Of a DNA stretch of 64,000 bases, positions 11,332-61,992 are shown in pieces. The translations under genes were made by a program, and so were the position numbers. The stretch's first letter is position 1. The number at the start of each line of letters is the position of its first letter. Source of the DNA: Vermamoeba vermiformis (Eukaryota); assembly GCA_045837725.1 (NCBI GenBank), contig JBEWZL010000044.1:248001-312000 (forward strand). Reading direction: 5' to 3'. The notes below the pieces were generated by a model. The model made no database searches and was not told where the DNA came from. It was given only the letters and a program-made list of their open reading frames with translations.

Positions 11332-13507
11332 ATGATCGACCCAATTTTAACCCCGATCTCAATCGTTTTCTATGCGGCAGCTTTTGTGTTCTGCACGTAT
11401 ATTATGGTCTATTTCACGCATCCAGACGACAGAAATGTAGCGTTCTTTCCTAAAGTAGTCGTTGTAAGTATCTACAAGCACCTCTGCTACTAAAGTTTAT
11501 TTGAAAATTGGAATGCGGATGTGATTATTGTCGTAAATGACATTTTATTCGAGCAAAATAGTAATAATTTATTATAGGCGATGAGCTTGACCCTCGCAGT
11601 AGCGAATATCTTATTATTACCGTTGGATGTGGCTAGTACAGCCTCAACCTACGACGGCTTGCCCATGGATGTGATTTGGTTGTGCGTTCAAATCCTCATG
11701 GCGGTGCTAGTCATATTGATAATACCATTTTCGTACTTCTATTACTCTAACTATGAACCTTATTCAAAGTAAGTTTCAGATCCGCTCCGGGATAAGTGGG
11801 AATTGAATTCTAACTTCTTAATGATAGGAAGAAGCCGTTGAAGAAGGCATTTATTGGCACTGTAGTCATATTGATCATATTCTGCATTCTATGCGCTGTT
11901 GGATACATTTTTTTGGGCGTGGCAGAAGTGCCGATCGAAGTCCAAGAGGTAAAGAAACAATTTATAGCAAGCTATTTATATTTAAATCATATAGTGACGC
12001 TATATTCTCGCATTTATAAGAATATTGGAGGTCTTTCCTTTCATTTGAAATTTTCCAGTACACGAATGCGGGATCTGATTTCCAAAGTTTATTTTAGCCC
12101 TGATATTAATACCATACAATAGGTGCAATCAGTAGTCAATGCTACTAGACGTCCCGAAGCTTCCGATTGTCCTGAATGCAACTTTGTTTTGCACGATGGC
12201 AGCATCTACTACAGCACGCGCCAATCGTTCCCAGTCAGCTTTATTTTGTTCTTAATTACCGTTATTGCCTTATTAGGCTATTTGTTGTTCATTCTATTCG
12301 CTGGCATCGGTTTCGTCGCTCTTCCTCAACAATTGATCCAAAACTACAGATGGAGACCAATGCCTATCTCCGACGAAGAGTACGTCACTATAATAATATA
12401 GGTAGTATTTCCTAATACTAATATTGCTATTTTTAGATGGAGACAACGCAAAATTAATTTGGGCATGCGAGCTGCTGCGTTGATTAGCAAGGCCAAAGAA
12501 TATCAAAAGAAAAAGCCTTGGCGCAGCGAATTCAACAAATATAAGAAGGTAAATAACACATAATAGTCATAGTATATAATAGCTCTATAAGATAATGAGC
12601 CGGGACTTGAGATCTCTGAATTGGATCTAACTTTTTATTTCCTTTTTAGGAAGTGTTAGCGCTCGAAGATGAATTCAAGTACACGAGACAAGCGCACAAA
12701 TTGAAAGGCAAACACATTCTCTATTACATCGTGTGTCTGATTGGTGGAATTGTTGGGTACGTACCGGATCTACTTTTCACTGAACGAGCATCACGTCTAA
12801 CATTACATTTCCTAATTTAGTATCTTTTTGACGCTGGCTTGGTTGGTGCACATCGTATTATTCAACTGGTTTGACTATTATCCATTCTTGAACAATTTGT
12901 TCTTGGCACTGGATGGCGTCGTTTCCTTTTTTGGAACTGTCTTCTTTGGCATATTCGGATTTTACCTTTTATGGTGCACGATCGAAGGTGTTCTCAAGTT
13001 TGGCTTGCGCATCCCATTCATTTTCGCCATTCATCCCATTAAGTACGTTGAAACAAATTTGACACGTGTCAAGAATTGTCACTAACAGTAACTTTCCTAA
13101 TTAGGAAAAAGGAGACTTATATGGATGCCTGGTTATTCAATGCGGGCATGATTCAATTGGCCTCGGTCGGAGTGTCTTATTTCTTGTCCTTGTCATTCAC
13201 CGTCTACGCCAGATTGAGCTCGAACAACGGTACGCAAAACAAAAAATATCTTTATTTCCAAATAAGGAAATACTCATTCGTTTCATTTGCAGTTATCTAC
13301 AACTTGTCCGTGTTCAACATGCGCGGCTTGAGGTACATCTGGGCACCGTTGTACTGGGTCTTGGTTGGCCTGACATTTATCTCCTTTGTGTACTTTGCAC
13401 TGAGACCTGTTGGCTACAAAAAGAGACTGCAACACACTCGCTCGAAGAGATTGCAACGCAAATATGAAATGCAGCCTTTGAACAACAATAACAACGAAAA
13501 TAAGTAA
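11332..13507 (+). CDS. LMBR1/LIMR-family multi-pass membrane protein
   Basis: VYFTHPDDRNVAFFPKVVV, NILLLPLDVA, IIPFSYFYY, GIGFVALP, ETYMDAWLFN; many introns. Confidence 0.9.
13060..13071. promoter_or_regulatory. intronic palindrome TGACACGTGTCA (first of at least 8 copies; see findings)
   Basis: Exact copies at 13060, 29726, 32296, 36172, 54754, 55131, 60893, 61676. Confidence 0.6.
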
Positions 13508-13618
13508 CGAGCCACATCCAGCTCATAACAACACCGTCATATTTATTCTTGTAAATAAAACCAAATTAATGTACATTATGCACAGTTATACTACAACTAT
13601 TATTAAAAACTAATATCA

Positions 13619-15865
13619 CTACGCAGCCTTAAAATATTCCGAAATAATTTTGAGTGCACTTTCCAGTCCGTTCTCTGTCTTCATTTTTTCCGCTGCTCGC
13701 ATGGCAGTTTGATGGTACAACGGCTTTTCAAGCTCCGTGAGACCTTTAACGAACTTCTTCAACGTCAATTTTCTCATCGGAACTGGCGCTGGACCCAAAT
13801 TATTTCGATGAATTAAATCGCCGTTGAACGGTTGATCTGCTGCCACAGGAAGCTGAAAAATAACCATATTAAGTAATTGAAAAAATAATTCGAGGAAAAT
13901 TTTTTGATCGATGTCTTACAATGAATGTCGGCAGTCCGTAGCGCAGACCAGTGTGTGTGGTACCCGCGCCACCATGATGCACGACTGCACGGCACTGAGG
14001 AAACAACCATTCATGCGATATATCTATAGTCAGATATTATTAGAGTCGGATTCAGGGTCACAAAGTATGAGGTGTGCAACGTACTCTGTTTGATGAAACA
14101 AATGTTGGCGCGTTCAGGCTGACTCGCCAAGAATTCTTCGACTTGCGTAAATCCGTGCAAATTAATCACGCCGCGTCGTTTGACTTGTTCGAGGCCTTGG
14201 ATCCACGTGTTGATAAATGCGTGTTGTTCCTTAGCTTCGAACATGATGCTCATCGTGCTGCCCATGCCAATGTAAATCGGATCATCGCCCGCTGTCAAGA
14301 ACTTTGCCTGTATAATATTTGATAAATAAGATGGTTATTACTAAATATGGCAATGTCTTAATCTTCGTACCAAGTGCTCCGGTTTCTCGAATTCATCGGT
14401 TGTGCAGTATATCGGACCAAGCATATGTTCATTTGCAGCCCTATGAAGAAAGGTCATTATCATGCATGATTACCATAAAAGGAAATAATTGTCTTGTCGT
14501 ACCAATCGTTAGGTCTCGGCAACAGCGCTTGACTGTAAAAAGTCAAACTCGGCATGGCCCATTTAGTAATCATGCCACGGAAGTCAGTACTAATTACTCG
14601 TTAATTAGAACTATTTTACTATAAATGGAAATAATTATTGCCCGTGGACTTACGTGGGTGGTAAATTGAGCAGATCTTTTCTGCACTGATTTATGGTGTC
14701 TTTAGATAACGACCATGCACCCGCATCTTGCAATTTCCACTAGAAGTAATAATTAATATTAGTATCATAGTAAAAAAAAATGACGTAATGTTAAACGAGA
14801 TTATTGTTCCTGGAGCGGATTTGATGTCCAATCAAATTTCAAAAGCGGAATTTTAGTCCGAAGAACAGATTTTGAGACTGGGCTACGAAATTATATTTGC
14901 GACGTACTTTGAGACTGTTCATGAATCCAAACAAGCTCTGTGCTGCGCCGAGCATTGGTGCTGCAAATGCACTTGTCGGTGTGTTGGGATAAAAATTCAA
15001 GACTGCGCATTTGATTTTAGGATTGGCTTCGACCTAATATTATGATTAGTCATTATAATAGTGCTATACATTATGTTTAGTAATGTTATTATAAAATTAG
15101 ATTTTTAAACGGGTGGAAAATTCGATCCGATTGGTTTTGCGAGATCTCGTACCAATGAATATCCGCTAGCGAGGGTTGGAATAGTGTATATAATATAATC
15201 AGCATCAACACATGCTTTGTGCATGGCAGTGAACCATTTTACGACCAGCGGATTGAATAGACCCTAAAAATAACGTCTGTAAATAAGGCATCATCTTTAA
15301 AAATCCTCCATTTATTAAAAATTATTATTTATATTAAATTGTATAATATGCGCATATTATACCAATTATATTACGGTTGCGGTGAATATAAAATTTATTC
15401 CGCAGTTACGATTACGCCAGACCGGAATAAATTCAATATAAATACTAATATACATAGTATTAATAACGATATTAATTCGTACCTTTAATGCTCCTATTCT
15501 CAATAACGATGGATTTCTAGAGACTTCTTGGCCTTCTTTGGTTTCAGCCATAACGTACTCGATATCACCGACAATATCGGCCCATTCGAGTCCTATATTT
15601 ATATTTAATTATGACTATTGTACAAGTATTTATTGTATAAAATCATTTGAAGCGATGGAAAATTAAGTCGGATTGGTTTTTAAATTTTAACTTTAATGTA
15701 ATGATGCTTACCGTGCTCTTCGGTTTTCTTTTGATATTTTTGAGTGGCTACTATAGTCACGCGATATCCTAACTTTTTCAACCCTTCTCCAAGCAAGATG
15801 CAGGGCAAAACATCGCCGAGCGAACCTACAGTGGGAATTACGACTTTGGGCGAGGTAGTGGCCAT
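13619..15865 (-). CDS. sterol 3-beta-glucosyltransferase-like UDP-glycosyltransferase
   Basis: N-terminal [35 protein letters not shown]; multi-exon. Confidence 0.9.
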
Positions 15866-16135
15866 TAATGTTCAATCTGTTAATCAATAAACTTTAATAA
15901 ACTCGAGGTAGCAATGACAGAACTTTGTAATCTCGTCAACGGGAGATTTATTCCAAAATTGGACAAATACAATTTTACCAGCAATTCGAATTGGTCCGTG
16001 GATCAGGTTCCATACCATGGTTGTTAATTAATCGTAAACGACAATAGGTAGTGATTTAGCGTGTTTATTTACAAATTTTGACAGATCTAGTTTCTAAATT
16101 GAATTAGCATTACAATGTTGTCTATTAGTACTCTC

Positions 16136-28336: not shown

Positions 28337-31246
28337 ATGGATGACTACCCATTAACCGATCTATCAAATGATATCCTTCGGTATATATTGGAGCTGCTAG
28401 CAGAGGACTCGGTTCCCGGTCTCATCCAAATTTCTCAGCTCAGAACGGTATCAAAAAAAATTAATACAATTATTAATGATGAGTACATCCATACATATTT
28501 TATGAAAACGCTTTTACGGGGTAAGTAGTTCATTCTAAAATATTTCAATTAAATTATTGATTTTCGTTTTGCCATCACCATTTAGGGTTTTCAAAGACAT
28601 ATTTTCCGAGAAAGCTTGACAATATATACAATCATAGAGACGCAAAGGCGTTTCGAAGCAGTAAGTAAATTAACTTCAGAATCTGATCCATAATTACATG
28701 TCTGTTCCTTAGTCTTCAACTCTATGTGGCCGAAAAGCGATCACTTTGCCTCGAGGATGTACAAGCATTATTTTTGGCTTACTTTAAAGGAAGCGGATGC
28801 GACTTTTATGAAAGAATATTTGTCCATTGCCCCGAGTACCGAAGATATCCTGTCACACGATAAAATTTTACAGGTCATCGAAGTGGCAAATGAACGAGAC
28901 GACAAATGTGCGATGACGCTGTGCTTATTACCATATTTAGTATCGTTCTTTCCGAGTGTGGATCCCAACCACATTGACGTAAGTTTTTATTTGTTTCATA
29001 AGGGACTATACTAATGAATTATTAGATGATCAAACTATCGCTCATTTACGGGGTAAAATTGACTATTGAGCCCGAATTCAAAAACGAATTAGCGGAACTG
29101 CTCCGAGCTCAAACATTAGCGTTCAAACCAGAATCAGCACAAAGGCTTGACTCCGGATTATTATTGCGATTCTTAGGTATTTAGCAATAGCGTAATACTA
29201 ATAATAAGATGCTAATTAATAAAAATAGAACCGAAGAAAAAAAAAATTGTTGTACCGCAAGGTAAGAAATTTAATTCTTATTCTTCGCTAATAATATTTA
29301 GGGCGAATATTGGGACCAACTAACGCGACGGATTTATTCGTGAATCATCAAACAGATTACAAAAAAGGCAAACCAACATTTAGGACAACGAACTTTGCCT
29401 TACCGAACGACAAGAGTTACACTATCAAATACATCACCGCATCAAATAACGAAAAAACAATCACTTTTTCCAAGAATAACGAGCTGTATCAGTACGAGGA
29501 CCTGAAAACATCCAATTTGTACGAGTTGTTCGTTCGAACCAGCATTTTTTCACAGATCTTGGAGTCATTCCCACACCAACACGTGGCACTCACGGAAGAG
29601 GCCATGAAGCTACCATTCGAAGAGCAGCCGTGGTTCTTTGGTGCGTTGAGCGATGAAGAGGTCGAACAAATCATTTCAGGTCAGTTCGACAAAAACACGA
29701 CTTGACACTTTGACACGTTGAAATATGACACGTGTCAAAAGATATGTCACTCGCGATTGCTCATATTACAAAATCAGGCGCGGCTGGTCAAACAACAATG
29801 CTCATGCGATCAGTGGGCTCAAATGTTTACATGCACTTTAGCAAGCCTGCTCGTGGGCACAGTAGTTCAAACATTAAGCCACGTCGATTCGACTACGATC
29901 AGAACTTCTGGCAAGAATTCAACTCGGATTCATTCACAAAATTGAATTTGAAGTTCCACACGGGATTTTTTAACGGCGGCTACGTGAAAGATTTGCCGAT
30001 ATTTCAATTTTTCAAAGCGATTGACCGAGGAGACGAAATCAAGACTGTTTGTATGGCAAATAGTAAGTATAAATATATGATTTGCTTAGCTATTAACGTG
30101 CTTATATTATATCATTTCTTCAGGAATTGACCCAGCGCATCCAACTTTTCGACATCAAAACGTTCTACTGGGCTATTTGATCAAGAACCAGGTCGCAAAT
30201 GAAGAAATAATTCACTGGATGATTGACCAGCAGTTTCCTCTTAATATTGAGTACGTCCTAGTTTTTGAATCCGGATCGACTTACTGGATCTAACTTTCCG
30301 TAGTTTAAGCATGTTGAAGAGGCTGCTGAAAAATGTCGGTGTGACAGTCAAAACAATAGAGCGGTGCTGGCCCTTGATAACTGAGTCAATTGACGTGAGT
30401 GCATTGGTCAGTTCGTACTTGAAGGACGTGCAATCAGCGGCGACATCCAGCGTGTCTTTCCCGCACTACTACAAGGCCAGTTACACGCGACGAATGTTAG
30501 TGCATCTCGCGTGGAGATATGGCAATGACGACAATTACTTCAAGATGTTGCCAGGTGAAATTATCGAGATGATTTGTCAGTTCAATCTCGATCCGGCACG
30601 GTGGGAAGAAATTGCGGAGTTTTTAATGCAAAAAACGGTCAATATGATTGAATTCAGCACTGTTAGTTTGCCGATGGACCTGCAAATCAAATTTGGAAGA
30701 TTTTTTTGCGATAATTTCACGAGATTTAAAGAAGAATCTCATGCCAAATATCTGCGGAATATGTTCGCGCATCTACCAACAACGAGCTCGTACGTGCTAT
30801 TTGATGCATTTGAACTCTTGAAATATTACATCCCGAAGATGAAATCGTATTTTTTACGAAGAGACGGTCGCAATGGATTGACAGATCTGTTGCACTTGTG
30901 TTTGAAAACACCGTCACGTGTCACTAAAACCGACAAAAAACTCAATTTAATGAAGAAAACACAAGCACTTGACTTGCTGAAAGTGCTGCTGGACTTTGAA
31001 CCTTTGCGAAAATTTCATCAGAGTGAATGCAGTTGCTCGGACTACAAACGAACCGATCGATTGCCGTGCTTTTGGCGCACAATTAGCCACAAGAACATCG
31101 ATGCTATTGAGTACCTCGTCAGAAACAATTGGATGCCGCTAACGGCCTCGTCAACGGCTTTGTCGGCCACAGAATATGCTTGTATCTGCGGCCACGAAGA
31201 TCTCGTAAAGCCTTTAATGGAAGGCCCTGCAAAGACAATTATATGA
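28337..31246 (+). CDS. F-box protein with SH2-like segment and C-terminal ankyrin-like repeat (paralogue A)
   Basis: N-terminal LTDLSNDILRYILELL...LRTVSK; QPWFFGALSDEEVEQII; FKMLPGEIIEMICQF; SATEYACICGHEDLVKPL. Confidence 0.7.
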
Positions 31247-31441: not shown

Positions 31442-33790
31442 ATGATCAAGAAACTAAAAGGTCGAGCATGTCAGGTAGGAAAATGTTAACAGATTCGATC
31501 TTAAATGAAAAGTAAGGCACTAAATATGTTATAGAAAAGCGAAAGCCTGAAGAGGACTCGGAAAGCAGTAGTACGGATTTAGAGACTGTTGCAGTAAAAT
31601 TTAACTAATTTCAATTACATTAGAAAAAGCAAAAGTGCGAGAAGAACGGGGGCACCAAGGTATATAAATGTAAAGTTAAGATATTCTGATTTTTTTTTTG
31701 CGCATCTGTGGTCCCGATCTAAATCGTTAATTATAGAGATCTCGCCGATGATTACCAATCCCACCAATGATGACAACGAAAATAATACTAATGAATTGCC
31801 CAAACCGAAAATCATTATTCCTCCAGGTAAAAGCACTCTGAAAAATAAATGGGTGAAATTCATTTCTTTACTTAGGGCGACTGTTATTTATAAGCATCAG
31901 AACAGAAAAAGACGTTAAAAAAGGCGTATCGAAGTATATCACGACAAATTTTTGGCACAACAGTGGCTGCATCCGGTACATCACCTCAGACTACAGCAAA
32001 AAGCGAGATGCAGTCAATATCGAGAAAAGAATCTTTATTACAGTGCTAAAAAGTACATACGAGTACGAGGGACTGAAAACATCCAACTTGTACGAGTTGT
32101 TCGTGAGAACCAGCATTTTTTCACAGATCTTGGAATCGTTCCCACACCAACACGTGGCACTCACTGAAGAAGCCATGAAGCTACCATTCGAAGAGCAGCC
32201 GTGGTTCTTTGGTGCGTTGAGTGATGAAGAGGTCGAACAAATCATTTCAGGTCAGTTCAACAAAACGCAACTTGACACTTTGACACTTTGAAATATGACA
32301 CGTGTCAAAAGATATGTCACTCACGATTGCTCATATTGCTAAATCAGGCGCGGCTGGTCAAACGACAATGCTTTTGCGATCAGTGGGTCCGACTGTGTGG
32401 ATGCATTTTAGCTACTCGGACCGGCACAAACGAAAAAGAATTCCACCGTACAAACTCGCGCACAATGAGATCCTTTATTATCAACTGAAGAATATACCTT
32501 CTCCATTTTACACGGGATTTTACAACAACGGTGTTGTAAAAGAACTGCCAATCTTTCAATTCTTCAGAGCAGTCGAGAGAGGCAATTTGGAGGAAATTAA
32601 ACGGGAATTCCTCGAAAAAAGTACGTAATATTTCGTTTGCGAGCTACATTTTTACGAAAAAAAAAAAATTAGGCATAGACGCCCAGCATCCGGCTTTTAG
32701 AAGAAACTGTGTATTGCGGGCTTATTTGCACAAAAATGAGGTGGCGAAGGACAATGGCATCAATTGGATCCTCGATACCCAATTTCCCGTTAAAATCAAG
32801 TACGTTCCGATCATTTTAAGTGGCAAACATTTTAAAATTTAAATTTTTTATGGCAGTTTGACTCTTATGACCAAGTTGGTGACCAATTATGGCACGACCG
32901 TTAGAGCAATAGAACGGTGCTGGAACATGCGAACGGAAGAAATCGATGTTGGCGAGCTAATTAATGCAATATTGCCGCAATATGGCTGGTCATTCGGATG
33001 TACAGGGAATAGCTTCAAAATTAGTCACACAAAAAAAGTGCTAGTACATCTTGCGTGGAGATATGGCAATGACGACAATTACTTCAAGGCACTGCCGGCA
33101 GAAATTATTGAATCGATTTGTCGGCATGAAATTGACCAATCACATTGGCAAGAAATTGTGGAGTTTTTACTGGAAAAAGCAACGAGCCCCATCGAACTCA
33201 ACCTCAAAAAAAGACCAATCCAGCGGGCAGCAGAAATCGGAAAAATATTATGCGACAACTTTATGAAATTTACGGTGCAATCACACATCAATTACTTGAA
33301 ACGAGAAATCAACGAACCTTATCAATATCATTCCGACCAAGCCTGGATCAACATGTTGGTGCTGTTCACAGAATACATACCGAAGACCATATCTCACTTA
33401 GCAGACAATAATACGACTGTGTTGAACGAAGATCTTGGAACACTCTTGCACTTTTGTTTGAAGGGCACCGACAAATACAAGCCAATCGCAATGGCGCCAC
33501 ACACATTCAAATTGTTGAAATTGCTGCTCAGCTACGAGCCACTGCGCAATTATCATGCGACAAAGTGCTCCGTAAACTGCTGTGTGACTTCAAAAGATGA
33601 ATTCATCAGACTCCATGTGCCGTGCTTTTGGCAGGCAATTCAACACGCGAACATCGATGCCGTTAGTTATTTGGTCAGAAACAAGTGGATGCCGTTAGCA
33701 CCTGGATCTGAGTGTCCACATTCTGCAGCAGAATTCGCAATCGTTTGTAAGCACCCGAATCTTGTAGAATTATTGATGCCCGATAAATGA
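31442..33790 (+). CDS. tandem paralogue B of the preceding gene, lacking the N-terminal F-box
   Basis: Shares LYELFVRTSIFSQ..PWFFG, LAWRYGNDDNYFK, PCFW, NIDA..YLVRN.WMPL and intron positions; 5' exons uncertain. Confidence 0.7.
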
Positions 33791-35072: not shown

Positions 35073-36718
35073 CTAGAAGATCACCACGATAACCGTCGCA
35101 AGACTTACAACAAGGATGTTCGTAGCGAAATCCGTTGCTCCGCTGACCGATCCGTTACCACGTGACTGTGGAGCTGATTCAGGGCCATTAGGATCAATAG
35201 GTGTATCAACAGGGACAGAAAACAATTCCCAGAACTTCTGCGAGGCATGCGGGAACTGCGAGACAGGTCGTAATCGATGATCCCCGTCGAAGGCAAAGAC
35301 GTCAAAGTACGACTGAATTTGGACGTCGTTGGTGTCGTCGATGAGGTAGTTGTACATTTGTTCAATGTAGTAGTCATTGTCGAATCCACCGTGAGTTTGG
35401 GCCCACACACCCCACTCGTTCATGATCACGGGCTTGCTGTGGTTCTTGGCGAAGTCAGTCCAGTACTTGATGCCGTGGTGTCCGTTGTAAATGACGTCCC
35501 AGGCCTTGACACGGAGTGCTTGGAGTTCAGTAGCATTTGCTAGTAGCTGCCAAGTGTCACCGTTTGAGCCAGGCTCGACATTAGTGTGATTGATCAGAGC
35601 CTTCCACACTGATCGGTTATGCTCGAGACCGTCGCCCACAGTGTATTGTTTGGTGTTGGACCAAGAGCCGTAAGCTGCTGTGACGCCCTGATCAGTTCAC
35701 TTGTACGTGCCCCACTCAACATCGTACGCGTCAATGCCAACGTAATCAACATAGTTGTCGCCAGGATAGCATAGAGTTGCGTTATCGACATCAGCATAGC
35801 CATTGTTAACGCTCCAAATCACTTTAAAGTTATTTCCTAGAAAGAATTAGTGTGACGAGATATAGCACTGATTGATGTCGTACCTTGAACTGCCCGCATT
35901 GTATCAACGATGTTCTTGAAATACTGGGACCAATAATCGCATCCTGCCTTTGCAGTCCATGCGTACCATCTTGAGAGATATCGTTAGTATGGTACTGTTG
36001 CCAGTGGCTCGCTTACCCTCCGTTGAACTCCCAACCAATGCGAAGATGAGCGGAAGACAGATTGTAGTGTACAAGATTCTCAGCTAAGGTCGTAAAGTAC
36101 TGGTTGTAAGTGCCAGCAGCTCCGGTTTGAATGGAGACTAAAAGGAAGTGTTAGGAATCTGGGAGATTGTTTGACACGTGTCAAAAGATATTTTGATTCG
36201 TTTTGCCTGCGTTCGCAAATGAAATGTGAAATCGTCGATGATTTACGGTTAAATACATAAAAATACAGAGCGATTAAATTATACTGCGAAATTTAATAAC
36301 GCCTATAGTGAAACAATTTTGTAATAAAATAATGCGCATCAATTACCTCCGTTTGTCTTTGGTAGCATAGGAATCGAAATAATAAACTCTCGTTTATATC
36401 CTTCAGGCACGCTATTCACCCACTCGCTCCACGGTACTAGCCACCACGTTTGGTATTGACCGCTAATGTGCTGCCAATCATCGTCCGCTTCGAACTCCAA
36501 ACCATAAACGACGGGATTGTTCAACCACTCGCTGTAATTGGCCATGTTACGAGGGCCATAGGGAGCGGCACCGGTATAAGCGCCCAATTCAGGATGCGAA
36601 ACCGCGATCTGATAAAAAATCCGTTAGAAAAGATATTGGTTTAATATGATGCACATATACTTGCACTAATAAGTAAACTGGCAACAAGCGCGCAAATAAT
36701 CAGCTTTGTGCTCGACAT
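35073..36718 (-). CDS. secreted, probably GPI-anchored glycoside hydrolase family 26 (beta-mannanase-like)
   Basis: Signal peptide; LRIGWEFNG (acid/base), YPGDNYVDYVGIDAYD, KPVIMNEWG (nucleophile); hydrophobic C-terminus. Confidence 0.88.
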
Positions 36719-42782: not shown

Positions 42783-45700
42783 ATGGCATTACGTATATTG
42801 ATGGTGGCTGAGAAGCCTTCCATCAGTCAGTCGATCGCTGAAATTTTATCTAAAAATCAGGTAAATCATTCTCCATTGATACATTTATTTAATTAATATT
42901 TTATACATTCTCTAACAATATTGCTCTACTTAAATTGCCTTCTAAACGATTGTTGAAAAATTTGCCTGTATTTAAACGAAATCCGATAATGACGCTTAAA
43001 ATAAATTTAGATGCAATCAAGAAAGGGAATTCTGCCAGTACATGAATTTCAAGCGCAGTATAAGGGCAAGACTGCCAATTTTAGATGCACATCTGTTGCT
43101 GGTCATGTTTACACGTAAGTGCGCGATCAATCTCAGAATCCACGTACATATATTTATTTAATAATTTTAGGACTGATTTTGATGCTAAATATCGAAATTG
43201 GGAGACAACTGATCCAGGTAAGATCAGTTACTTGTCGCGAGGACTCCTAACTAACTGCGTAATATCTAGCCACACTATTTGACGCACCCGTTCTCAAAAT
43301 TGAGTCCAATCCAAAGGGCCATGTCTGCAAGCATTTACAGCTCGAGGCTCGTGGCACTGACGTGTTGATCCTGTGGATGGACTGCGATCGTGAAGGCGAG
43401 AACATTTGCTTTGAAGTGATCGAAAATACGAAGCACTGGATGAACCAAGGCGCTAAAATTTATCGTGCTCGGTTTTCAGGTACGTGTACTGATTCTAATA
43501 GCCTTAAAATATTATTTTAACTTTTTGGATGTAGCTATTACAGCACCCGACATTAACAAAGCCATGCAAAATTTGGGCGAGCCGAACAAAAATGAGGCCC
43601 GTTCCGTCGATGCGCGTCAAGAAATCGATTTGAAAGTCGGTGTGGCGTTCACTCGCTTTCAAACACGCTACTTCCAGTCCAAATACGGCAATCTCGATTC
43701 GAAAACAATATCATATGGACCGTGTCAAACACCAACTCTCGGCTTTTGCGTTGATAGGCACGATGAAATCGCTCAATTTGAGCCCGAGACGTATTGGCGA
43801 GTGGTTCCGATGGTCGAGAAAGGCCCAACTAAAATCCCACTCGAATGGGCTCGCGAACGTGTGTTCGATCATCAAGTCGCACATTTGTTTGCAGGACTCG
43901 TGAAACAAGACAACTTTGCTACGTAAGTTAACCTCAGCACTAACAAGTAGATCTGATCTAATACTTCACCAGCGTTACTGAGTGCACCAAGTCACGCACT
44001 AAAACAGCTCGACCCATTCCATTGAACACCGTGGCTCTGTTGAAAGTCGCATCAAATAACTTGGGCATTGGTCCTCATCAGGCAATGGTGATAGCAGAGC
44101 GATTGTAAGCGAGGCCGAATGTCTTTTAACGGTAATGTTAACAATATGACAGGTACATTCGTGGTTTTATTTCGTACCCGAGAACTGAGTCCACACAATA
44201 CCCCGAACATTACAACATTCGTGAAGCATTGTCGATCCAGCGCGATCATCCTATTTGGGGTGAATACGTCACGGGTCTGTTGGCCGAAGGAAAGGTCAAA
44301 TCGAAGAAGGGACACGACGCTGGTGATCACCCTCCAATGTAAGCATATTAAGATTTTTAAGCGGCATATCTAACGGGTCAACAGTACCCCAATGGCATGT
44401 GCTACTGAAGAGGACCTTGGAGGCAATGACTGGCGCTTGTACGACTACATCACGAGACACTTTATTGCTAGTCTTTCGAGCGATGCCAAGTACGACAAAA
44501 TTAAGATTAAGTTCAGCCTTGGAGGCGAGTTCTTTTCCTATTCTGGCAAAAGAATCATTTCCGAAGGCTTCACCTCGTTGATGCCCTGGTTGAAGAGCAA
44601 AGACGAGATCAAGATTGATATGCTCGAGAAAGGCGAGCAGTTGCCAGTGGCTGCTGTTGAAGTCAAAGAAGAGCAGACTAGTCCTCCACCATACTTGTCT
44701 GAAAGTGACTTGATCGCATTGGTATGCTGACACGTGTCTTTCCCGACGACCAATGCTAATTATTCTATTAATAGATGGAGAAGCACGGTATTGGTACTGA
44801 CGCAAGTATTGCAACGCATATTGAGAACATTATTCAAAGAAACTACGTCAGAGTACGTAACGCGAGTCAGATTTTGCCGCATAATTCTAATGTCCTTAAT
44901 AGCTTGACGAGCGGTCGAGAACTCTTCAACCAACTCACCTTGGCGTTGCTTTGATCCACGGATACCGTAAGATTGTTAAAGTATTGGCCTGACTTCAGCG
45001 TCTAACTTCAAACTCCTCTACAGACAAAATTGATCCGGAACTTGTGCTGCCTAAGTAGGTTTTATTTTACCGTTACAGTGATATTTCGCGCTAACCCTCG
45101 CCCTTGCAGAGTTCGTGCTGCCATTGAACAGTACATCAGCTACATTGCACAGGGCAAACAGACCTTCGAAGCTGTCGTTGCACACACGTTAAAAGTGTTC
45201 ATTTCCAAGTTTGATTTCTTCGTTAGAAACGTAAGTAGTGGTGCATAATAGTACGAGACACATATTAGTTAATACACCGCATTAGATCCAACAAATGGAC
45301 GAACTATTTGAGGTGTCGTTCACTACGATTAAGGACATGGATCTGAACTCTAAAGTCAAGCCGAAGTGTGGCAAGTGCAAGAGATACATGAAATTCATCT
45401 ATTTGAAGTAAGTGCACGAGCTCAATCGGCTCTTCGTTGACTCACCACTCACGTGCTACTTTAGGCCACAGCGAATTTACTGCCCGAACTGCGAAGAGAC
45501 CTACAGCGTGCCACAAGGTGGTACTATTAAGGTATATTATATATATGTATTGTATTGTTCGGTTTATATACTAACGATGGTTTTTACAGTTGTACAAAGA
45601 GTTGTTGTGTCCGCTCGATGATTTTGAACTGCTCACTTTTGACGCACCAAATGGCCAGGCCTATTCATTCTGCCCGTTCTGCTTTAACAACCCAACGTTA

Positions 45701-46436: not shown

Positions 46437-46751
46437 TAAGCGTAATCAAGTCCTCTACATAATAAACTGATTCAAGGGATCCTCATTCGGCTAACCAATA
46501 CGCTTAAGTTTTTGATGCTTTCTTTCTCCAATGAAATATGCAATCGTTTCAATATTCACAGATGTTAGCTAATAGCATAATTATTCGCTGCTAAAAATAT
46601 CCGACCTTCGAAATTTCGATCCAGTTAAGCGAAAAAGAAACCGTTTCTCGGCCGAAAGCCAGTTCAGCTTACAAAAAAACAAATATAAAAGGCAACGAGT
46701 CCTGTTTATTATTCATTCAGATACAAAGCAGTAGAGCAACAAAAGAACTAA

Positions 46752-47560
<809 letters not shown>

Positions 47561-47662
47561 ATTAATACAATACACTAAGCGAAATAACTCTCCTTGTATC
47601 ATAGCAATTTTTGAATTAAAAACCGTGTATAATAGCCGATACAATAGTCATTTATTCGATTA

Positions 47663-52465: not shown

Positions 52466-52580
52466 TTGTGTTCATGAAAGCGTTGAAAAATATTTAATTT
52501 GCTTTTATTATTCTGTTGCCAAGCTACCAGAACAACAAGACATTTATTATAGTTATCTATAATATTGAGTAATTGTTTTC

Positions 52581-55626
<3,046 letters not shown>

Positions 55627-55918
55627 TTGACGCGTGAAATACGAGGTCAGTTCGAATTTTAGTTTATAAAAGTGACACCATTTGAATTACACCGGCAATG
55701 ATTCGTAATTTTGGTTTATTCATTGGGGAATATCATAACAAACGGGAAAAGAGTCCCCAAAAGGTTAAATATACTAAAAGCCAGTAGTTTCCTTCGTTAA
55801 ATCGCGTATCTTTGGCGTTTTGTGGTTGTTGGGGCAACCACCCCAAAAGCAACTATTTAAGCGTTTTCTCTGCTGCTTGTCATTATTTTCTATTCGATTA
55901 ACGTGAAACAGTCCACAA

Positions 55919-57602
55919 ATGAAATTAATTTCGTTGTTGTTCGTTTGCGCGACAGTATTTTGTCTCGGTAAGTAGATCGCTTTAAACTCAGCAACAAATA
56001 CTAATGAATTGAAAATAGGATATTGTTTCGATATCATGGGCCCAATAGATAGTGTTATTAGCCCTGGCTATTTATTAGACGGAGATACCATTGACGTCGT
56101 TAAGATCGGAACCACTCAATACTTCAGTGCGTTTGTAGCGGCTGGAGAAAAGGTAAGAATATTACATATATTTCGTAAAGCTAAAGTTTAATGTTGTAGG
56201 ATTGGAAATTATACGGAACGACGACCGACATTGAGATGGGAGACTCCGTTACGACGGAGATCTTGACGTTGGATGGCACTGATAGCCGAAGTTTTGTGAA
56301 GACAACAGTGCTAGACACTGACTTAGTATTGATATCGTGGTATAGGAAAAGTGCTCCTGCGAATCTTGAGTCACTTGTGTATCAAGTACCAACCGGGCAA
56401 AGTAAGTTTGGGATGGACCAAAAATAGAACCAGATCTAATCATGCATGCAGTCACAAAGGACCTTGAAACGCTCTATGCATTCCCATTGGACTATAATTT
56501 GGCTTCATATCACATCGCACCAATCTCGAAGTACGTTTACGCTATTACGGTTCAAGCAGCCATTGCTCGAGCTAGACGGTCCTTAGTGCCCGACACTAAT
56601 GGCCTCCTCGTTGTGAACAAGAACGGCACGGTATATATTGAGCAACAGTACTACGATGACGAATGGGTGAGTTATAATGTATATTATAACTGTGCGTGAT
56701 AGTTGTTGACACGTGCCTTCACAGCGACCATTCGGCATCGAGTTGTTCTCACCAACCTTCTCTGTCATGTCACTGAACCTCTCTTGTGGCTGTGTTCACG
56801 TGCAGTCCTTCAACTTGCAAGGCTTTTTCTTAGGTAAGCCATTCTCTTTATGAAAAACAGTGCGATCTGACCCGGCGCTTTAGGCGAGAAGAATGTCTTC
56901 AATGTGTCTGGCGAGCCAACCAACATTATGCAAGTGCGCACAGGTGACACGAGTTTGTTCCTTTATACTGTTGCCAATAAGCTGTTAGCTACACCCTACG
57001 ACTTGATCCAACAATCACCCGGAGCTGAAACGGAAATTATGTCGTTCTCAAGCTCTACAGAGTTCATTCACGTAGGCGCTGCTTCACTAGCTCCTGGCGT
57101 GGTGGCTGTGGCTTATGATACCCTCTACCTTCTTCGCTCAGTCAATGCCGCGTTCAGAACGACAGTCTATGATGTGGAGACACGCGACCAACGCATGAAC
57201 GAGTACGTCAGATTGGTGATAAATACACTGTGCATATCTAACGTTAGTGGCAGCGTCGTGATGGAGAGCAACTCGCTGTCAGGCTACTTTGGAGTAGCAG
57301 GTGTGGACGAGTACACGCACGTGGTCGCGTTCTTCCGCTGCAACGACACAGTGAGTGTTGGTGCCTGTCCCGGCCACATGGTCGTGTCGCACATGATCTT
57401 TCGACAGCCCACTCCACCTGTCGACATGCCGCCCTTGCCCGAGACACCTGATGTTGGCACAGGCACCAGACCTATTGCCGTTCAAGTACCTGTGGCGGCT
57501 AACAGACCTCAAGCGAATAACAACGTCACCAGTGCTAGTGCTGCACTCACAGCTGTTGGTGCTTTGACTCTGTTGGCCAGCGTATTCTCAAGCGTGTTGT
57601 AA
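55919..57602 (+). CDS. secreted beta-rich surface protein, probably GPI-anchored
   Basis: Signal MKLISLLFVCATVFCL; Pro/Thr stalk; C-terminal SASAALTAVGALTLLASVFSSVL. Confidence 0.7.
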
Positions 57603-57799
57603 ATATAATAAAGATATAATAAGACAAATACGCGTGCGTGCTTTAATTTACTTTATTTACGATAGAATCTTGAATAACAAGAGCGCTACTCTGTACTTAC
57701 CTCCGCTGAACTGCTTGCGATCGTTTTGAGATCAGATCTGTTAATAGCGTATTAGATACTGTACAATTAATAGGATTTAAATAAAAATAAATGATTTAA

Positions 57800-57891
57800 G
57801 AGCTATGATCAGAATTTGTTTCCGTTTCATCGATGGCGGAAACCATCTAAAACAAGAGGTGTCAGATATTTAGCTATCATCATTATAGCTC
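57800..57891 (-). ncRNA. box C/D snoRNA (guide to LSU rRNA, SNORD60/snR48-like region)
   Basis: Terminal stem GAGCTAT/ATAGCTC; box C ATGATGA (57883-57877); box D CTGA (57812-57809); internal TCTGACACCTCTTG; C'-like CGATGA. Confidence 0.85.
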
Positions 57892-58080
57892 CGCGTAATG
57901 TTGGTTATACAAAACTTGGTAAGGCGGGTTGCCTAACTTACCAAAAACGGCGGGATCTGAGTTGATCAGAAGATCAATCTGATGCGAAAAATACCGAAAA
58001 ATCTGAAAAAAACAGGATTGATTAGATATTGATAATAAAGATATGCAACGCAAATATAATGTATTTAGAATTATTTTAGA

Positions 58081-58217
58081 GATTGTATGAGCAACATATT
58101 CCGCTTTTTTCATTTTTTGGTTCAAAAGCGAGTTGTCAATTGCTCGAATACTGTATGCACAATATACGGTGTCACACTCCATGAAAAGCGAAGAGGACAT
58201 AGCATGAGTGTGCAATA
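58081..58217 (-). ncRNA. box H/ACA snoRNA
   Basis: Hairpin TGCACA/TGTGCA, H box ACAGTA (58154-58149), hairpin GAGCAA..CGCTTTT/AAAAGCG..TTGCTC, ACA (58086-58084). Both pockets are 14-15 nt from the boxes. Confidence 0.85.
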
Positions 58218-58431
58218 GGCAAAAGATTTTACACCTTGCGGATGCAGTTGAGACTTACGTTAGTTGCCTTGGCTCAAGTGCACGATCGCATTGTTTGTGG
58301 AGTTCTTATGAATGAGATTGATAGTAATAACAAGTTCAAAAAGCAAAAAGGGCGGCACACGACCCTGACTTAATCGCACCAGGAAAAATCTGGACACAAG
58401 CGTGACTTAATCGCAAACACAATGCTTGGCT

Positions 58432-59892
58432 TTATTCAGAACTCTTCGGCCTCAGTCTGAACTTGCACGCGATCGATAGATGATCTGAGCCTAGGTAGTC
58501 GTTCGGCAGTGCTGTTTGAATGCTCAGACTTTTCTCGTCAGGTATCGAGAGCAGTGCTTCAGGCTCGAGTTCAAAGTCATCGTCTTGACACCAACGAGAC
58601 TCGAGTAAACAGATGTAGTCCAATGTGAGACGAGCAATGGGCGTGTAGGTCGTGTAGGGAGGTTCAATCTTGGGCTTGTCGTGATACTTGGCTGTCTGAC
58701 ACGCACTCGGATCCACCTCAAAATAGTTCCTGTACATGCTATTTAACACGGGCAGCTGTTCGAGTGACTTGTACAACATCTCGACTTTGTCTAATCGCTC
58801 GGCAATCTCTTCATCTGTCTGCGGCTTTGGGATCACTTCAGCATCTAGTACCTCGCGTGAAGGCTGCACCAGATGGTTGATGTACCGCGAGTAGTGATTG
58901 GCCGGTGTTAAAAACGCGTGTTTGTCAATGCGAGCAAAGTTACGGCTGGTCAACAGGGCGTAGTCTGTTCCGTGAGGCCAAAAGTTGAGGTCCCCGCCTA
59001 TTATAACGGGGTACCGCTTGTCGAACTTGTTCTTGAATGCAATCACTTTGTATAATAAGTGCTCGATTTGTCGTAATCGGACGTAGCTGTATCGGGGATT
59101 CCAAAACAGATGCGTTGTGCTGCAAATTACGCCTTGATCACTAAAGTGCAAAAAGTGAGTTAGCAAATGGATACTCTATTAATTATATAGGGCTATTAGG
59201 TACCTATTAACGTCTTGTAATAGAATAATCTGTGCGATGTTGTCGCGAGTCAATTCTTCTGTCTCGACGCCCGTTGTGCCCTCAGCTAGGCTATTAAACT
59301 GAATTTCTTCGTAATCTACGCGCTTAAATCTGAAATAAAGTAATATTAGTACCATAGTTGAGTGGATACTACGAGTGGTTTGGGCTTACTTGTCTTTCCG
59401 CCAAAAGATACCACATCCGTCTTTCTTGTTACCATTCTTTTTCAGCCAAACAGAATCGTATCCTTTCTTTTCTAATTCTGGCCTCCACCACTCGTAATAG
59501 AAATCCATTTCCTAAATAGGAAACCGAAATTTAGAATTCATGGATCAAACGGACTGCAAATTAAATTATCAAAAAAAATTCAAAACAATTATTTAACCGC
59601 ATAATATTAGAGTATCAATTCATACCTGAAAGCACATGATGTCAGTCGCTAAATGCAAAATTTCGTTGAGCAGGATCTGTTTTCTTGTTCCCCATTTCAG
59701 ACAATTGCTGCTACAATAAGGATAGGTATCGCGTCGTATAAGTGTTTGGCCCAACAAATTATATGTCATAAAACTAATGCCTTGGCCTTGCTTGTCTTCG
59801 AGATCCTGCTTGCTGCTCTTTATCGGCAGGTACCTCCGAGGATACAACGACTCGAAAGTATTTTTTTGGTCTTTTTGTGTTTGATTTTCCAT
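58432..59892 (-). CDS. EEP-family nuclease, Angel/Ngl/CCR4-like
   Basis: MTYNLLGQTLIRRDTYP, DIMCFQE, TTHLFWNP, IIGGDLN, TLDYI, GSDHLSI. Confidence 0.9.
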
Positions 59893-60264
59893 TATGGAGG
59901 TGATTAATGCTTCACAAACAAAAAAAGGATTCATTTTGCAGTTTGATTGTTGAGAAAATACACAGAAGTCAAAATAGCGAGGACGAAAACTAGCCACGTA
60001 GCAGTCTGCAAAGAGAAATGATCTGGAACCTTGATATTTCGGGTCAACTGCCTTCGCAAGACATCAGATCCGATCTCATCGTGGATTTGTTCAACAAAGT
60101 AGGGATTAAAAAATAGCGTTCAAATGCATTTGATAAAGTCCTAATTACATCTATATTACCAAACGGCACAAGTGACATGTCACTTTTCACCTCCAAAAGT
60201 TGTGTATTGTTTTCAATCGTGCAACAGAACAGCCACATGAAGATTGCCATTTAATGCATTATTA

Positions 60265-61992
60265 ATGACCCTGATGATAAGTAATTTTTCTTACAAATGC
60301 TTGTGGCTCGTTGTTCTTGTTGCAACATATTCGGATGCTAAAATTATCGTCACTAGCTCTCCAGATGTTACAAGTAAGACCCCGTTAAATAAACGTATTG
60401 TATAATGTATTTACGACGGATTCGTCTTAGTTGAAGCTCATGGTGCTCCGATCCGTTTTGCAAATAATCCATCTGACTTCGCTTTGGCCGGCGAACTTGT
60501 GTTAGATTCAAATCAAAACGTCAGCGATAGAATAGTACTTGTACATAGGTATACAACTCTTAATTCCCTTGATTCATTTTGCGGCTAAATAGCCCCCACT
60601 TTAGAGATCTGGAAGATTGGACGTGGTCACTCCGCGGCATTCCGTTACAAAACGCCGGTGCTAAAGCCCTTCTATTACAGCCTGAGCCCTTTTACGGTAA
60701 GGAAGCACTGAATGAGTAATTCACAAGCATTGTTTTTGACACATCCACTTGATACAGCACTCGTTCCCGGCTTGACTCAATTTTATGGTTATGAACCACC
60801 ATCAAATGATCTCAAAATTCCTATATTAGAAATGACAGAGGCGGACTATCAACGCATTCTTGCCCTGTTCCAAACCGATGGTGCGGAGTTGATGACACGT
60901 GTCAATGTGTCCATAGATTCTTTGGGTAATTTGTGCCGCGTCGGCTTCGGACATCAATAATCTAACGGTATTAATAAGATGCCAACGAATGGGCCGAACT
61001 TTTCTCCTCGGATTGGTACATTGCATGGCAGGTGATTGTTGGTCTTGTCAGCGGCACTATATTAGCCTTTGCACTCTACGAGTACTTTGTATTCTTCCGT
61101 CGCGACGGCTGCAGATTGACTATACCACAAGCATCGCTCTTAATGACCATTGTGGGTGCTGCCAGTACGTACAAGTCATCTCCATCGTTGATTTAGCTAA
61201 TCCCCACATCTTTAGTCCGCACTGTCTACGCTGTGACCAATCCATTGACTGGACGCAGACTGTGGGACTTTAGAGTAGACTCGGTGTTTTTGACGACACA
61301 CGCACCGTTCACATTCGGCACCGTGTTCCTAATAACACTCTATCAGTAAGGTTCTTCTGCATTATGATGCATATTAATCCAATGCCAATCAGACATGAAT
61401 TGATGACGTCCATGCGATTCAACACGTTCCTAACAAAAGCAAAAATTCCATTCGCGATTGCTATTGTGATCATTTTTGCAGCAGAAATAGCCACGAGTAT
61501 CATTCGTGCCAAGAACTCCATCACAGACTACGTCATCTTCATCAACATTATATTTTATATTATTGTGGCCGTAGTCTTTTCAGCGTATTTAATCGCGACT
61601 GCTATTCGCTTCCGACAGTTTGCCAAAGGTGGCGAGAAGAGCAAGAAAGGACTACGAAAGGTAGTATTTTATCATTGACACGTGTCAAATTCGAGATCCA
61701 ACCAACAATGCATTATTAGGTCGTATTATGGAGTGCCTTGTCGTCAGTGTGCATGCTGAGTTTTGTTCTAATTTGCGGCTTTTTCTTCCTCGACAACGCC
61801 AACACACCAGTGCCGTACACAGTGATATTCTTCTGCCTATTCATCGCTATCAACATGATCAGCTTGATACATATTATCACGCTGTTCTCGTCAGTGCAAA
61901 TCATTCAATCCAGCGTGAGCAAAAAGTCTTCTGGCAAGAGTACTGAATTGAAGAGCGGCTCAGTCGAAAATGTAAATTTAACCAGCGATTAA
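60265..61992 (+). CDS. signal peptide + PA-like ectodomain + about 7 TM helices (GPCR-like topology)
   Basis: LQNAGAKALL..PG..KIPILEM PA-like motif followed by seven hydrophobic segments. Confidence 0.7.

What the first reader, a model, noticed from the sequence alone, without database searches (positions are those of the whole stretch)
13060..61687. Recurrent intronic 12-bp palindrome TGACACGTGTCA
Seen: exact copies at 13060, 29726, 32296, 36172, 54754, 55131, 60893 and 61676. Seven are intronic (LIMR, both F-box paralogues, GH26, NSUN2 twice, 7TM) and one is exonic; several extend to 14-16 bp. Near-matches also lie in introns at 3902 (TGACAAGTGTCA), 44728, 53302, 53465 and 56707. A given 12-mer is expected far less than once per 64 kb, and the flanks are mostly unrelated. 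Known: it contains a CACGTG G-box and two inverted TGACA half-sites with 2-bp spacing, as in TALE-homeodomain dimer sites. Inference: a genome-wide intragenic protein-binding or chromatin-organising element, a splicing hairpin (often close to the 3' splice site, where TGAC may act as branch point), or a transposon footprint.
Basis: partly seen in the sequence, partly recalled or inferred. Interest (0 to 1): 0.8.

Follow-up and report, generated by a model that had tools for sequence, protein, structure and literature searches.

The report
Exact 12-base palindrome inside short introns
One exact 12-letter mirror-image DNA word recurs in the tiny introns of a probably amoeba-like microbe, mostly at a set distance before the intron's end, which suggests an undescribed intron signal whose job is still unknown.

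Summary
TGACACGTGTCA occurs 8 times in 64 kb, against 0 in 100 shuffles, and its core is the most over-represented 8-mer of the window. Seven of the 8 copies lie in spliceosomal introns and one in a coding exon. Both one-mismatch copies are intronic too. Introns make up about 16% of the best-modelled 19 kb.

New here:
- The word is all-or-none: 11 ACACGTGT, 9 GACACGTGTC, 8 full copies.
- Flanks are unrelated, and there are no target-site duplications and no longer element.
- Six of 11 independent intronic full or partial copies end 32-35 nt before the 3' splice site (P about 0.003). This includes one 209-nt intron.
- The word is absent from 637 kb of other eukaryotes' NSUN2 loci.

Named protein hits suggest an amoebozoan. 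No related genome could be fetched, so neither conservation nor a genome-wide census was tested.

Best reading, with low confidence: a lineage-specific recognition site for a symmetric sequence-specific factor, kept inside introns and acting together with transcription and splicing. Rivals are an RNA mini-hairpin, the core of an intron-borne mobile element, a recombination hotspot and a branch-site variant. My text searches found no description of it. The same 14-mer also marks gene junctions in a group of tailed phages, which is probably unrelated.

The parts
13060..13071 (.). Exact copy (14-bp palindrome 13059-13072) in the 62-nt intron 13043-13104 of a plus-strand LMBR1-like gene. 17 nt after the 5' splice site; ends 33 nt before the 3' splice site.
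   Evidence: the LMBR1 Pfam hit for the upstream exon is weak (E 0.003)
29726..29737 (.). Exact copy in the intron of F-box-like paralogue 1 (plus strand). The intron is 29680-29777 (98 nt) or 29680-29741 (62 nt); both keep the frame. Partial copies of the TTGACAC half lie just upstream.
   Evidence: the choice of 3' splice site is not resolved
32296..32307 (.). Exact copy in the matching intron of paralogue 2. It is not independent of 29726, because both lie in a 329-column block of 93% identity while the rest of the two genes is 48% alike.
36172..36183 (.). Exact copy (16-bp palindrome 36170-36185) in the 209-nt intron 36138-36346 of a minus-strand GH26-like gene. Ends 34 nt before the 3' splice site.
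54754..54765 (.). Exact copy (14-bp palindrome 54753-54766) in the 63-nt NSUN2 intron 54737-54799. 17 nt after the 5' splice site; ends 34 nt before the 3' splice site.
55131..55142 (.). Exact copy in the 57-nt NSUN2 intron 55094-55150. Ends 8 nt before the 3' splice site and overlaps or abuts the likely branch site.
   Evidence: (joint in X21 and X23)
60893..60904 (.). Exact copy in a coding exon (reads M-T-R-V-N) of the plus-strand 7TM-like gene, 21 nt before the 5' splice site of intron 60926-60978.
   Evidence: (X6 joint 60924 to 60978)
61676..61687 (.). Exact copy (14-bp palindrome 61675-61688) in the 59-nt intron 61661-61719 of the same gene. Ends 32 nt before the 3' splice site.
   Evidence: (X6 joint)
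44728..44739 (.). 11-of-12 copy (last base T) in the predicted 53-nt intron 44722-44774 of the topoisomerase III-like gene. Ends 35 nt before the 3' splice site.
3902..3913 (.). 11-of-12 copy in an intron of a minus-strand gene (read as about 3845-3934). Ends 57 nt before the 3' splice site.
53302..53309 (+). Half copy TGACACGT in NSUN2 intron 53288-53348. The 12-mer register ends 35 nt before the 3' splice site.
53466..53473 (+). Half copy ACGTGTCA in NSUN2 intron 53421-53476, 3 nt before the 3' splice site.
56707..56718 (+). 10-of-12 copy in the predicted intron 56667-56724, 6 nt before the 3' splice site. Its TTGAC is the only branch-like word in range.

Best explanation
TGACACGTGTCA is a lineage-specific, letter-exact cis-element that this (probably amoebozoan) genome keeps inside its very short spliceosomal introns. 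It usually ends 32-35 nt before the 3' splice site, just upstream of the branch site, and less often sits in the last 3-8 nt.

I think it is most likely the recognition site of a symmetric (dimeric) sequence-specific factor that reads the duplex word within transcribed gene bodies. That factor would act together with transcription and splicing, marking a subset of roughly 5-10% of introns. I do not think it is a promoter element.

Shown: the excess, the exactness, the intron bias, the positional bias, the lack of a shared body, and the absence of the word from distant eukaryotes' NSUN2 loci.

Inferred: that a protein reads it, that it is read as DNA rather than RNA, and that the effect is on splicing or elongation.
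For: Excess and sharpness:
- 8 exact copies against 0 in 100 shuffles.
- Its core is the top 8-, 10- and 12-mer of the window. Counts go from 11 ACACGTGT to 9 GACACGTGTC to 8 full copies.
- 8 exact copies against only 2 one-mismatch copies.

Symmetry: the palindrome runs through the centre (ACGT). A symmetric dimer on duplex DNA requires this, but a hairpin loop does not. No other ACGT-centred palindrome of 12 bp or more exists, so sequence rather than shape is kept.

Intron bias:
- 7 of 8 exact and 2 of 2 one-mismatch copies are in introns.
- Introns are 16.3% of the best-modelled 19,187 bp, exons 61.3% and the rest 22.5%.
- P(7 or more of 8) is 2e-5 at 16% intron and 4e-4 at 25%. With the paralogues merged (6 of 7) it is 1e-4 to 1e-3.
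- No copy lies outside the gene models.

Position:
- The distance from the word's end to the 3' splice site is 33, 34, 34 and 32 nt (exact copies) and 35 and 35 nt (partial copies). This includes a 209-nt intron.
- 6 of 11 independent intronic copies fall in one 4-nt window, P = 0.003-0.004 under uniform placement.
- P = 4e-5 if placement is restricted to the space between the 5' site and the branch site, or 0.002 without the long intron.

Other points:
- Flanks are unrelated.
- The one exonic copy is far above chance for a 12-mer, which a DNA-level site allows.
- CpG is not depleted (observed/expected 1.14).
- The nearest described motif in my searches is the plant G-box bound by the bZIP protein HY5, which matches at 11 of 12 positions (abstract of PMC4415419).
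Against: - No binding, expression or splicing effect was measured. The motif introns that RNA covers are simply spliced out.
- Ordinary transcription-factor sites are degenerate and sit in promoters. This word is neither, so the reading needs a special gene-body role.
- A fixed distance to the 3' splice site is more naturally an RNA or spliceosome property than a DNA one.
- Conservation in related strains or species could not be examined. The one read-laying run showed only 40 of 727 differing positions. The closest related DNA found was only 53-61% identical in protein.
- Everything rests on one 64-kb window, on 6-7 independent exact copies, and on partly home-made gene models.
- The positional classes were seen first and tested afterwards.
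Confidence: 0.3

Rival explanations
1. RNA-level element. The transcribed word folds into a 4-6 bp mini-hairpin, or two copies pair with each other. A splicing-associated factor reads it near the branch site, so it works as an intronic splicing enhancer or silencer for a set of introns.
For: - The intron restriction and the 32-35 nt spacing from the 3' splice site are what an RNA or spliceosome-linked element predicts.
- The self-hairpin appears in the minimum-energy fold of 4 of the 6 exact-copy introns folded: LIMR, GH26, NSUN2 a and 7TM.
- The one-mismatch copy at 3902 changes a loop position only.
- Two genes carry two exact copies each, which could pair: 54754/55131 and 60893/61676.
Against: - The hairpin is weak: -4.0 kcal/mol for the 16-mer.
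- Whole-intron z-scores run from -1.8 to +0.7, so none is unusual.
- There are no covarying variants.
- The other partial copies break the stem.
- A hairpin does not need a self-complementary loop.
- One exact copy is exonic.
Confidence: 0.25
2. Mobile or insertional origin. The word is the surviving core, or the two joined ends, of a very short intron-borne or intron-generating element (introner-like). Alternatively it is a 12-14 bp insertion or excision footprint that is tolerated only in introns.
For: - Exact copies outnumber decayed ones (8: 2: a few), as in a young family.
- Flanks are unrelated, so the unit is only 12-16 bp.
- The shared layout (5' site, word, 14-21 nt, branch site, 13-19 nt, AG) in introns of 53-63 nt would follow from common descent.
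- The word is lineage-specific: 0 copies in 636,931 bases of other eukaryotes' NSUN2 loci.
- Introners are a known source of introns (abstract of bioRxiv 10.1101/2022.06.06.494994, seen in the listing).
Against: - There is no target-site duplication.
- No pair of TGACAC...GTGTCA ends encloses a longer inverted repeat beyond the palindromes themselves.
- There is no shared body. If the flanks have decayed to randomness, a neutral 12-mer should have decayed too.
- A neutral insertion should also be found between genes, and none is.
- Without the word, these introns would be 41-51 nt, at or below the shortest introns seen here.
Confidence: 0.2
3. Recombination or double-strand-break hotspot. A symmetric nuclease or hotspot-activating factor cuts or marks the word and starts gene conversion.
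For: The two F-box paralogues are 48% alike overall but 93% alike over a 329-column block (29490-29818 against 32061-32388) that is roughly centred on the motif intron.
Against: This is a single case. The block could be protein-level conservation plus recent conversion for unrelated reasons. The idea explains neither the intron restriction nor the spacing from the 3' splice site.
Confidence: 0.05
4. Branch-site variant. TGAC in the word serves as the branch point, and the rest is incidental.
For: In the intron at 56707 the TTGAC of the partial copy is the only YTRAY word within 8-40 nt of the 3' splice site. At 55131 the word abuts CTGAT. The short form of the F-box introns would use TTGAC or ATGAC.
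Against: The six copies that end 32-35 nt upstream lie too far away. Five of the six have their own CTAAC-type (YTRAY) branch word 13-26 nt from the 3' splice site; only the 7TM intron lacks one. A branch site does not explain a 12-bp palindrome.
Confidence: 0.05

Closest known systems
G-box / ACGT-core elements bound by bZIP or bHLH dimers (for example the HY5-bound plant G-box quoted in the abstract of PMC4415419)
   Same: A dyad-symmetric word with a CACGTG/ACGT centre and a TGAC flank. The plant G-box quoted there matches at 11 of 12 positions. GACACGTGTC appears in plant papers, judging by their titles on drought, as a stress-response element (listing only).
   Different: Those sites lie in promoters, are degenerate, and belong to plants. 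Here 0 of 8 copies lie between genes, the word is all-or-none, the host looks amoebozoan, and no binding protein is known.
Dedicated intronic splicing enhancers (yeast Mer1-dependent introns, Rbfox sites); recalled, not looked up
   Same: A short fixed word found only in a subset of introns, with position-dependent action.
   Different: Those words are not palindromes and are read as single-stranded RNA. No regulator and no effect on splicing is shown here.
Introners and introner-like elements (bioRxiv 10.1101/2022.06.06.494994 and PMC12130899, abstracts in the listing), and internally symmetrical introns of Hypoxylaceae (PMC8469720, abstract start only)
   Same: A repeated sequence that coincides with introns, with symmetry.
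   Different: Introners share tens to hundreds of bases, often with inverted ends and target duplications. Here only 12-16 bp are shared, and no duplication or longer element is seen.
Fixed 3' intron motifs of intron-poor protists (PMC2483917, title and abstract start only)
   Same: A conserved word at a constrained distance from the 3' splice site.
   Different: Those motifs are the branch site and acceptor themselves and occur in nearly all of a few introns. Here the word is additional to a normal branch site, palindromic, and present in a minority of many introns.
TALE-homeodomain dimer sites
   Same: Inverted TGACA half-sites two bases apart.
   Different: Not tested here.

Membership tests
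G-box type bZIP/bHLH binding site | Palindromic ACGT / CACGTG core | tested here: met
   The sequence itself
G-box type bZIP/bHLH binding site | Lies in promoter or upstream regulatory DNA | tested here: not met
   7 of 8 copies in introns, 1 in an exon, 0 outside gene models
G-box type bZIP/bHLH binding site | Core shared by many sites with varying flanks | tested here: not met
   There are 30 CACGTG, but 8 of the 11 ACACGTGT are the full 12-mer
G-box type bZIP/bHLH binding site | Bound by a bZIP or bHLH dimer | not testable with these tools
   Needs EMSA, DAP-seq or ChIP
Introner / MITE-like mobile element | Copies share sequence over the whole element | tested here: not met
   Flank alignments of 27 of 28 pairs are at the level of random pairs
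Introner / MITE-like mobile element | Inverted ends plus target-site duplication | tested here: not met
   No direct repeats flank the word. No longer inverted ends found
Introner / MITE-like mobile element | Copies coincide with introns | tested here: met
   7 of 8 exact and 2 of 2 one-mismatch copies
Structured RNA element (hairpin) | Fold more stable than shuffles | tested here: not met
   z-scores from -1.8 to +0.7 for the 9 introns folded
Structured RNA element (hairpin) | Compensatory changes keep the pairing | tested here: not met
   No other ACGT-centred palindrome of 12 bp or more. Partial copies break the stem. Only one window was searched
Intronic splicing regulatory element | Restricted to introns, with positional bias relative to splice sites | tested here: met
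Intronic splicing regulatory element | Changes splicing when mutated or when its factor is removed | not testable with these tools
   Needs minigenes or knock-outs
Branch-point sequence | YTRAY word 10-25 nt before the 3' splice site, used as the branch | tested here: inconclusive
   Position fits at 55131, 56707 and the short-form F-box introns. It does not fit for the six copies 32-35 nt upstream. Branch use was not mapped
Known RNA families (Rfam) | Match to a covariance model | tested here: not met
   0 matches at gathering score in the window; no tRNAs

The most novel reading that the evidence does not exclude
The word is an 'intron tag': an exact 12-bp palindrome set about 33 nt before the 3' splice site in some 5-10% of the introns of an amoebozoan lineage. 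It would be read by a dedicated symmetric factor that couples transcription or chromatin to splicing of that intron set. Alternatively, it is the selected core of an unknown class of ultra-short intron-generating elements.
Probability: 0.15. Interest if true: 0.85.

Novelty: new variant of a known kind. Interest (0 to 1): 0.6.

Why it matters
Short introns are usually thought to carry only the splice signals. A letter-exact palindrome in a sizeable minority of them, at a preferred distance from the 3' splice site, would point to an extra layer of intron recognition or gene-body marking in a poorly studied protist lineage, or to a new way in which introns spread. It is directly testable by a genome-wide census, comparison of strains, footprinting and minigene mutation. 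If the word turns out to decay neutrally, it is instead a marker of a recent, very odd insertion process.

Tried and rejected
Genome and earlier notes:
- The window's own genome is not held.
- Earlier notes of this scan had nothing on this genome, its relatives or this sequence.

- It gave intron joints for 2 motif introns.
- It showed only 40 of 727 differing positions, so conservation of the word in the 90-95% identical RNA runs and in the metagenome contigs could not be read.

Relatives of the NSUN2 exon in metagenome contigs:
- 80 loci were returned, the best at 53-61% protein identity, and none was close.
- They are mostly intron-less or are transcripts, so neither intron-position age nor orthologous-intron conservation could be tested.

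Taxonomy:
- The Clu1-like reading frame had one hit, at 63% identity.
- The PUF reading frame had a 94% hit on a 3.3-kb JGI contig, probably a transcript, whose DNA I could not fetch.
- The protein atlas gave no taxonomic help.
- My guess that the organism is Vermamoeba vermiformis is untested. The GC of 41.7% in PMC7125106 (passages) matches the window. But 3.5 introns per gene there (2.7 in the table of PMC10980511) is far fewer than the 12-18 per gene seen here.

Other negative results:
- Rfam and tRNA scans found nothing.
- CpG is not depleted.
- Introns fold no better than shuffles.
- No transposon-like pair of ends was found.

Literature:
- The strings TGACACGTGTCA, GACACGTGTC and TGACACGTG plus 'intron' returned only primers and plant G-box/ABRE papers.
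- Phrase searches on palindromic intron motifs and on introners in Amoebozoa gave nothing relevant.
- No supplementary files were opened.

Viral contigs:
- A scan for the 14-mer found no relatives of the eukaryote, only scattered single hits and a phage group (see noticed in passing).

Gene finder:
- My gene finder over-calls in its first form and under-calls between 14 and 29 kb in its second. I therefore used only the 43-62 kb region for the fractions.
Full report
**1. The observation**

A k-mer count shows that this is the dominant repeated word of the window. ACGTGTCA/TGACACGT is the top 8-mer (23 on both strands), and ACACGTGTCA and GACACGTGTCAA top the 10- and 12-mer lists.

The word is all-or-none. 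There are 30 CACGTG, 11 ACACGTGT, 9 GACACGTGTC and 8 full 12-mers. Up to two mismatches gives 15 sites: 8 exact, 2 one-off (3902, 44728) and 5 two-off. By my arithmetic about that many two-off sites are expected by chance.

Four copies extend to 14-16 bp perfect palindromes. Flanks of 45 nt on each side are no more alike than random pairs in 27 of 28 comparisons. The exception is the F-box paralogue pair.

**2. What the window is**

No genome is held for it. It is a eukaryote with about 41% GC, dense genes and very short GT..AG introns with CTAAC-like branch words.

Spliced joints from public RNA confirm introns of 47-63 nt. The 63 introns of my better-scoring gene models have a median length of 56 nt.

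Pfam names neighbouring genes: PUF with a CCCH finger, a Clu1-like protein, topoisomerase III, a DEAD-box helicase, NSUN2-like, GH26, and weakly LMBR1.

The PUF reading frame has a 94% identical hit on a JGI contig. Its named hits are led by Arcella, followed by Stereomyxa, Balamuthia, Vannella and dictyostelids, so an amoebozoan is likely but not shown. RNA runs carrying the same species label are only 90-95% identical to the window.

**3. Where the copies lie**

- 55131 and 61676 are in introns whose removal is seen directly in RNA. The joint 55092 to 55151 appears in 3 reads of X21 and 15 of X23, and the joint 61658 to 61718 appears in an X6 contig.
- 54754, and the half copies at 53302 and 53465, are in introns of a 12-intron NSUN2 model. 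Its spliced frame is open (764 aa) and aligns in single stretches with homologues across those junctions.
- 13060, 29726 and 32296 are in introns by reading frames and splice signals.
- The F-box introns have two in-frame 3' ends (62 or 98 nt), and I could not decide between them.
- 36172 lies in a 209-nt intron of a minus-strand GH26-like gene. The exons on either side join in frame. Pfam confirms GH26 only for the next exon.
- 60893 is coding (M-T-R-V-N) and lies 21 nt before an intron seen in X6.
- Both one-mismatch copies are intronic as well.

In the best-modelled 19,187 bp, introns are 16.3%, exons 61.3% and the rest 22.5%. Seven or more of eight in introns has P = 2e-5 at 16% and 4e-4 at 25%. 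With the paralogues merged, P is 1e-4 to 1e-3. None of the copies lies in the part outside the gene models.

**4. A positional rule**

I measured from the end of the word to the 3' splice site. The distances are:
- 33 (LMBR1-like), 34 (GH26, in a 209-nt intron), 34 (NSUN2 a) and 32 (7TM) for exact copies;
- 35 and 35 for the copies at 44728 and 53302;
- 8, 6 and 3 nt for 55131, 56707 and 53465;
- 40 or 4 for the F-box pair;
- 57 for 3902.

Six of 11 independent intronic copies fall in one 4-nt window, with P = 0.003-0.004 under uniform placement. With placement restricted to the free space between the 5' site and the branch word, P is 4e-5, or 0.002 without the long intron.

I noticed the pattern before I tested it, and the gene models are partly my own, so it needs a genome-wide check. 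Five of the six upstream copies have their own CTAAC-type (YTRAY) branch word 13-26 nt from the 3' splice site, and the 7TM intron has none, so there the word is not the branch site. In the copies that end 3-8 nt from the 3' splice site, TGAC may be the branch site.

**5. Tests of the candidate mechanisms**

*RNA hairpin.* The self-hairpin appears in 4 of the 6 exact-copy introns folded. It is worth only about -4 kcal/mol, and the introns' z-scores run from -1.8 to +0.7. No other ACGT-centred palindrome of 12 bp or more exists in the window, so nothing covaries.

*Mobile element.* I found no target duplication, no shared body, and no longer inverted ends.

*Methylation.* CpG observed/expected is 1.14.

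*Known RNAs.* None.

*Paralogues.* The two F-box genes are 48% alike, except for a 329-column block of 93% identity around the motif intron. That block is a gene-conversion tract. It makes the two copies one event and gives a weak hint of recombination at the word.

*Other eukaryotes.* 80 metagenome loci around NSUN2 homologues (636,931 bases, best 53-61% protein identity) hold 0 copies of the 12-mer. They hold 6 of the 8-mers, against about 19 expected for even composition. The excess is therefore specific to this lineage.

**6. Reading**

Exactness without covariation, and symmetry running through the centre, point to sequence-specific recognition of a duplex. In practice this means a symmetric dimer on DNA, or pairing between two copies. 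Intron restriction and the spacing from the 3' splice site point to a link with transcription through, or splicing of, the host intron.

I therefore put first a gene-body recognition site acting co-transcriptionally (0.3). Close behind are an RNA-level element (0.25) and the core of an intron-borne mobile element (0.2). A recombination hotspot (0.05) and a branch-site variant (0.05) trail. The remaining probability is for something I have not thought of. None of these is shown.

**7. Comparison with what is known**

The nearest described word in my searches is the plant G-box bound by HY5, which matches at 11 of 12 positions (abstract of PMC4415419). Such sites are degenerate promoter elements, and this word fails both of those criteria.

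Introners (abstracts) share whole bodies, and these copies do not. The fixed 3' intron motifs of intron-poor protists (PMC2483917, listing only) are the splice signals themselves.

String and phrase searches found no description of this word as an intron element. The library is limited to open-access papers and preprints, and I opened no supplements.

**8. A side result**

The 14-mer form was scanned in IMG/VR and gave 118 loci. Most are single hits. A few contigs carry many copies, for example 9 in the 15.4 kb of L188 and 8 in the 6.5 kb of L186.

L188 is a tailed phage with baseplate J, gp25, P2 GpU and tail-fibre proteins. There the word sits within a few bases after the stop codon of one gene and before the next gene, at all 9 places. 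It contains the bacterial -35 hexamer (recalled), so it is probably a phage promoter or operator. I regard it as unrelated to the eukaryote.

**9. Verdict**

The intron bias is confirmed and a positional rule is added. The mechanism remains open because no related genome could be examined.

Noticed in passing
window 13093-13108, 3844-3853, 4255-4264, 12641-12650, 13258-13267, 17001-17010, 26541-26550, 34841-34850, 53340-53349, 59511-59520: A second recurrent symmetric word of the CC(A/T)6GG class occurs 25 times against about 5 in shuffles (maximum 13). It is often extended to TTCC...GGAA, and once forms the 16-bp palindrome TTTCCTAATTAGGAAA. Several copies straddle a 3' splice site (..TTAG|G), and one lies just upstream of a start codon. 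The resemblance to MADS/SRF boxes is recalled, not tested.
   Followed up: partly
window 29490-29818 and 32061-32388: The two tandem F-box-like paralogues are 48% alike overall but 93% alike over a 329-column block that covers an exon end, the motif intron and the start of the next exon. This is a likely gene-conversion tract.
   Followed up: partly
L188 (IMG/VR contig of 31.7 kb), L186, L140-L144, L156-L161, L163-L168 and others: A group of tailed-phage contigs carries TTGACACGTGTCAA at gene junctions, within a few bases after a stop codon. There are 9 copies in 15.4 kb of L188 and 8 copies of the 12-mer in 6.5 kb of L186. It is probably a phage promoter, operator or terminator word.
   Followed up: partly
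window 46336-47669: RNA depth is 20-48 here against 0-5 elsewhere in the laid 20 kb. Many reads run on into unlike sequence or show odd joints, including opposite-strand joints and replaced segments. This suggests a highly expressed gene family or a repeat shared with other loci.
   Followed up: no
window 43001-63000: Raw RNA reads filed under the same species label as the best DNA holder are mostly only 90-95% identical to the window. This suggests deep divergence within that label.
   Followed up: no
window 15341-15362; 60170-60185: There is a 22-bp perfect palindrome (15341-15362) and a 16-bp one, AAGTGACATGTCACTT, whose halves resemble the motif's TGACA/TGTCA without the central CG. Overall there are 39 perfect palindromes of 12 bp or more against about 20 in first-order Markov simulations (maximum 26).
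   Followed up: no
window 8395-9744 (+): A 449-aa open frame has apolipoprotein/YtxH-like repeat matches, like the LEA-type stress proteins of desiccation-tolerant organisms.
   Followed up: no
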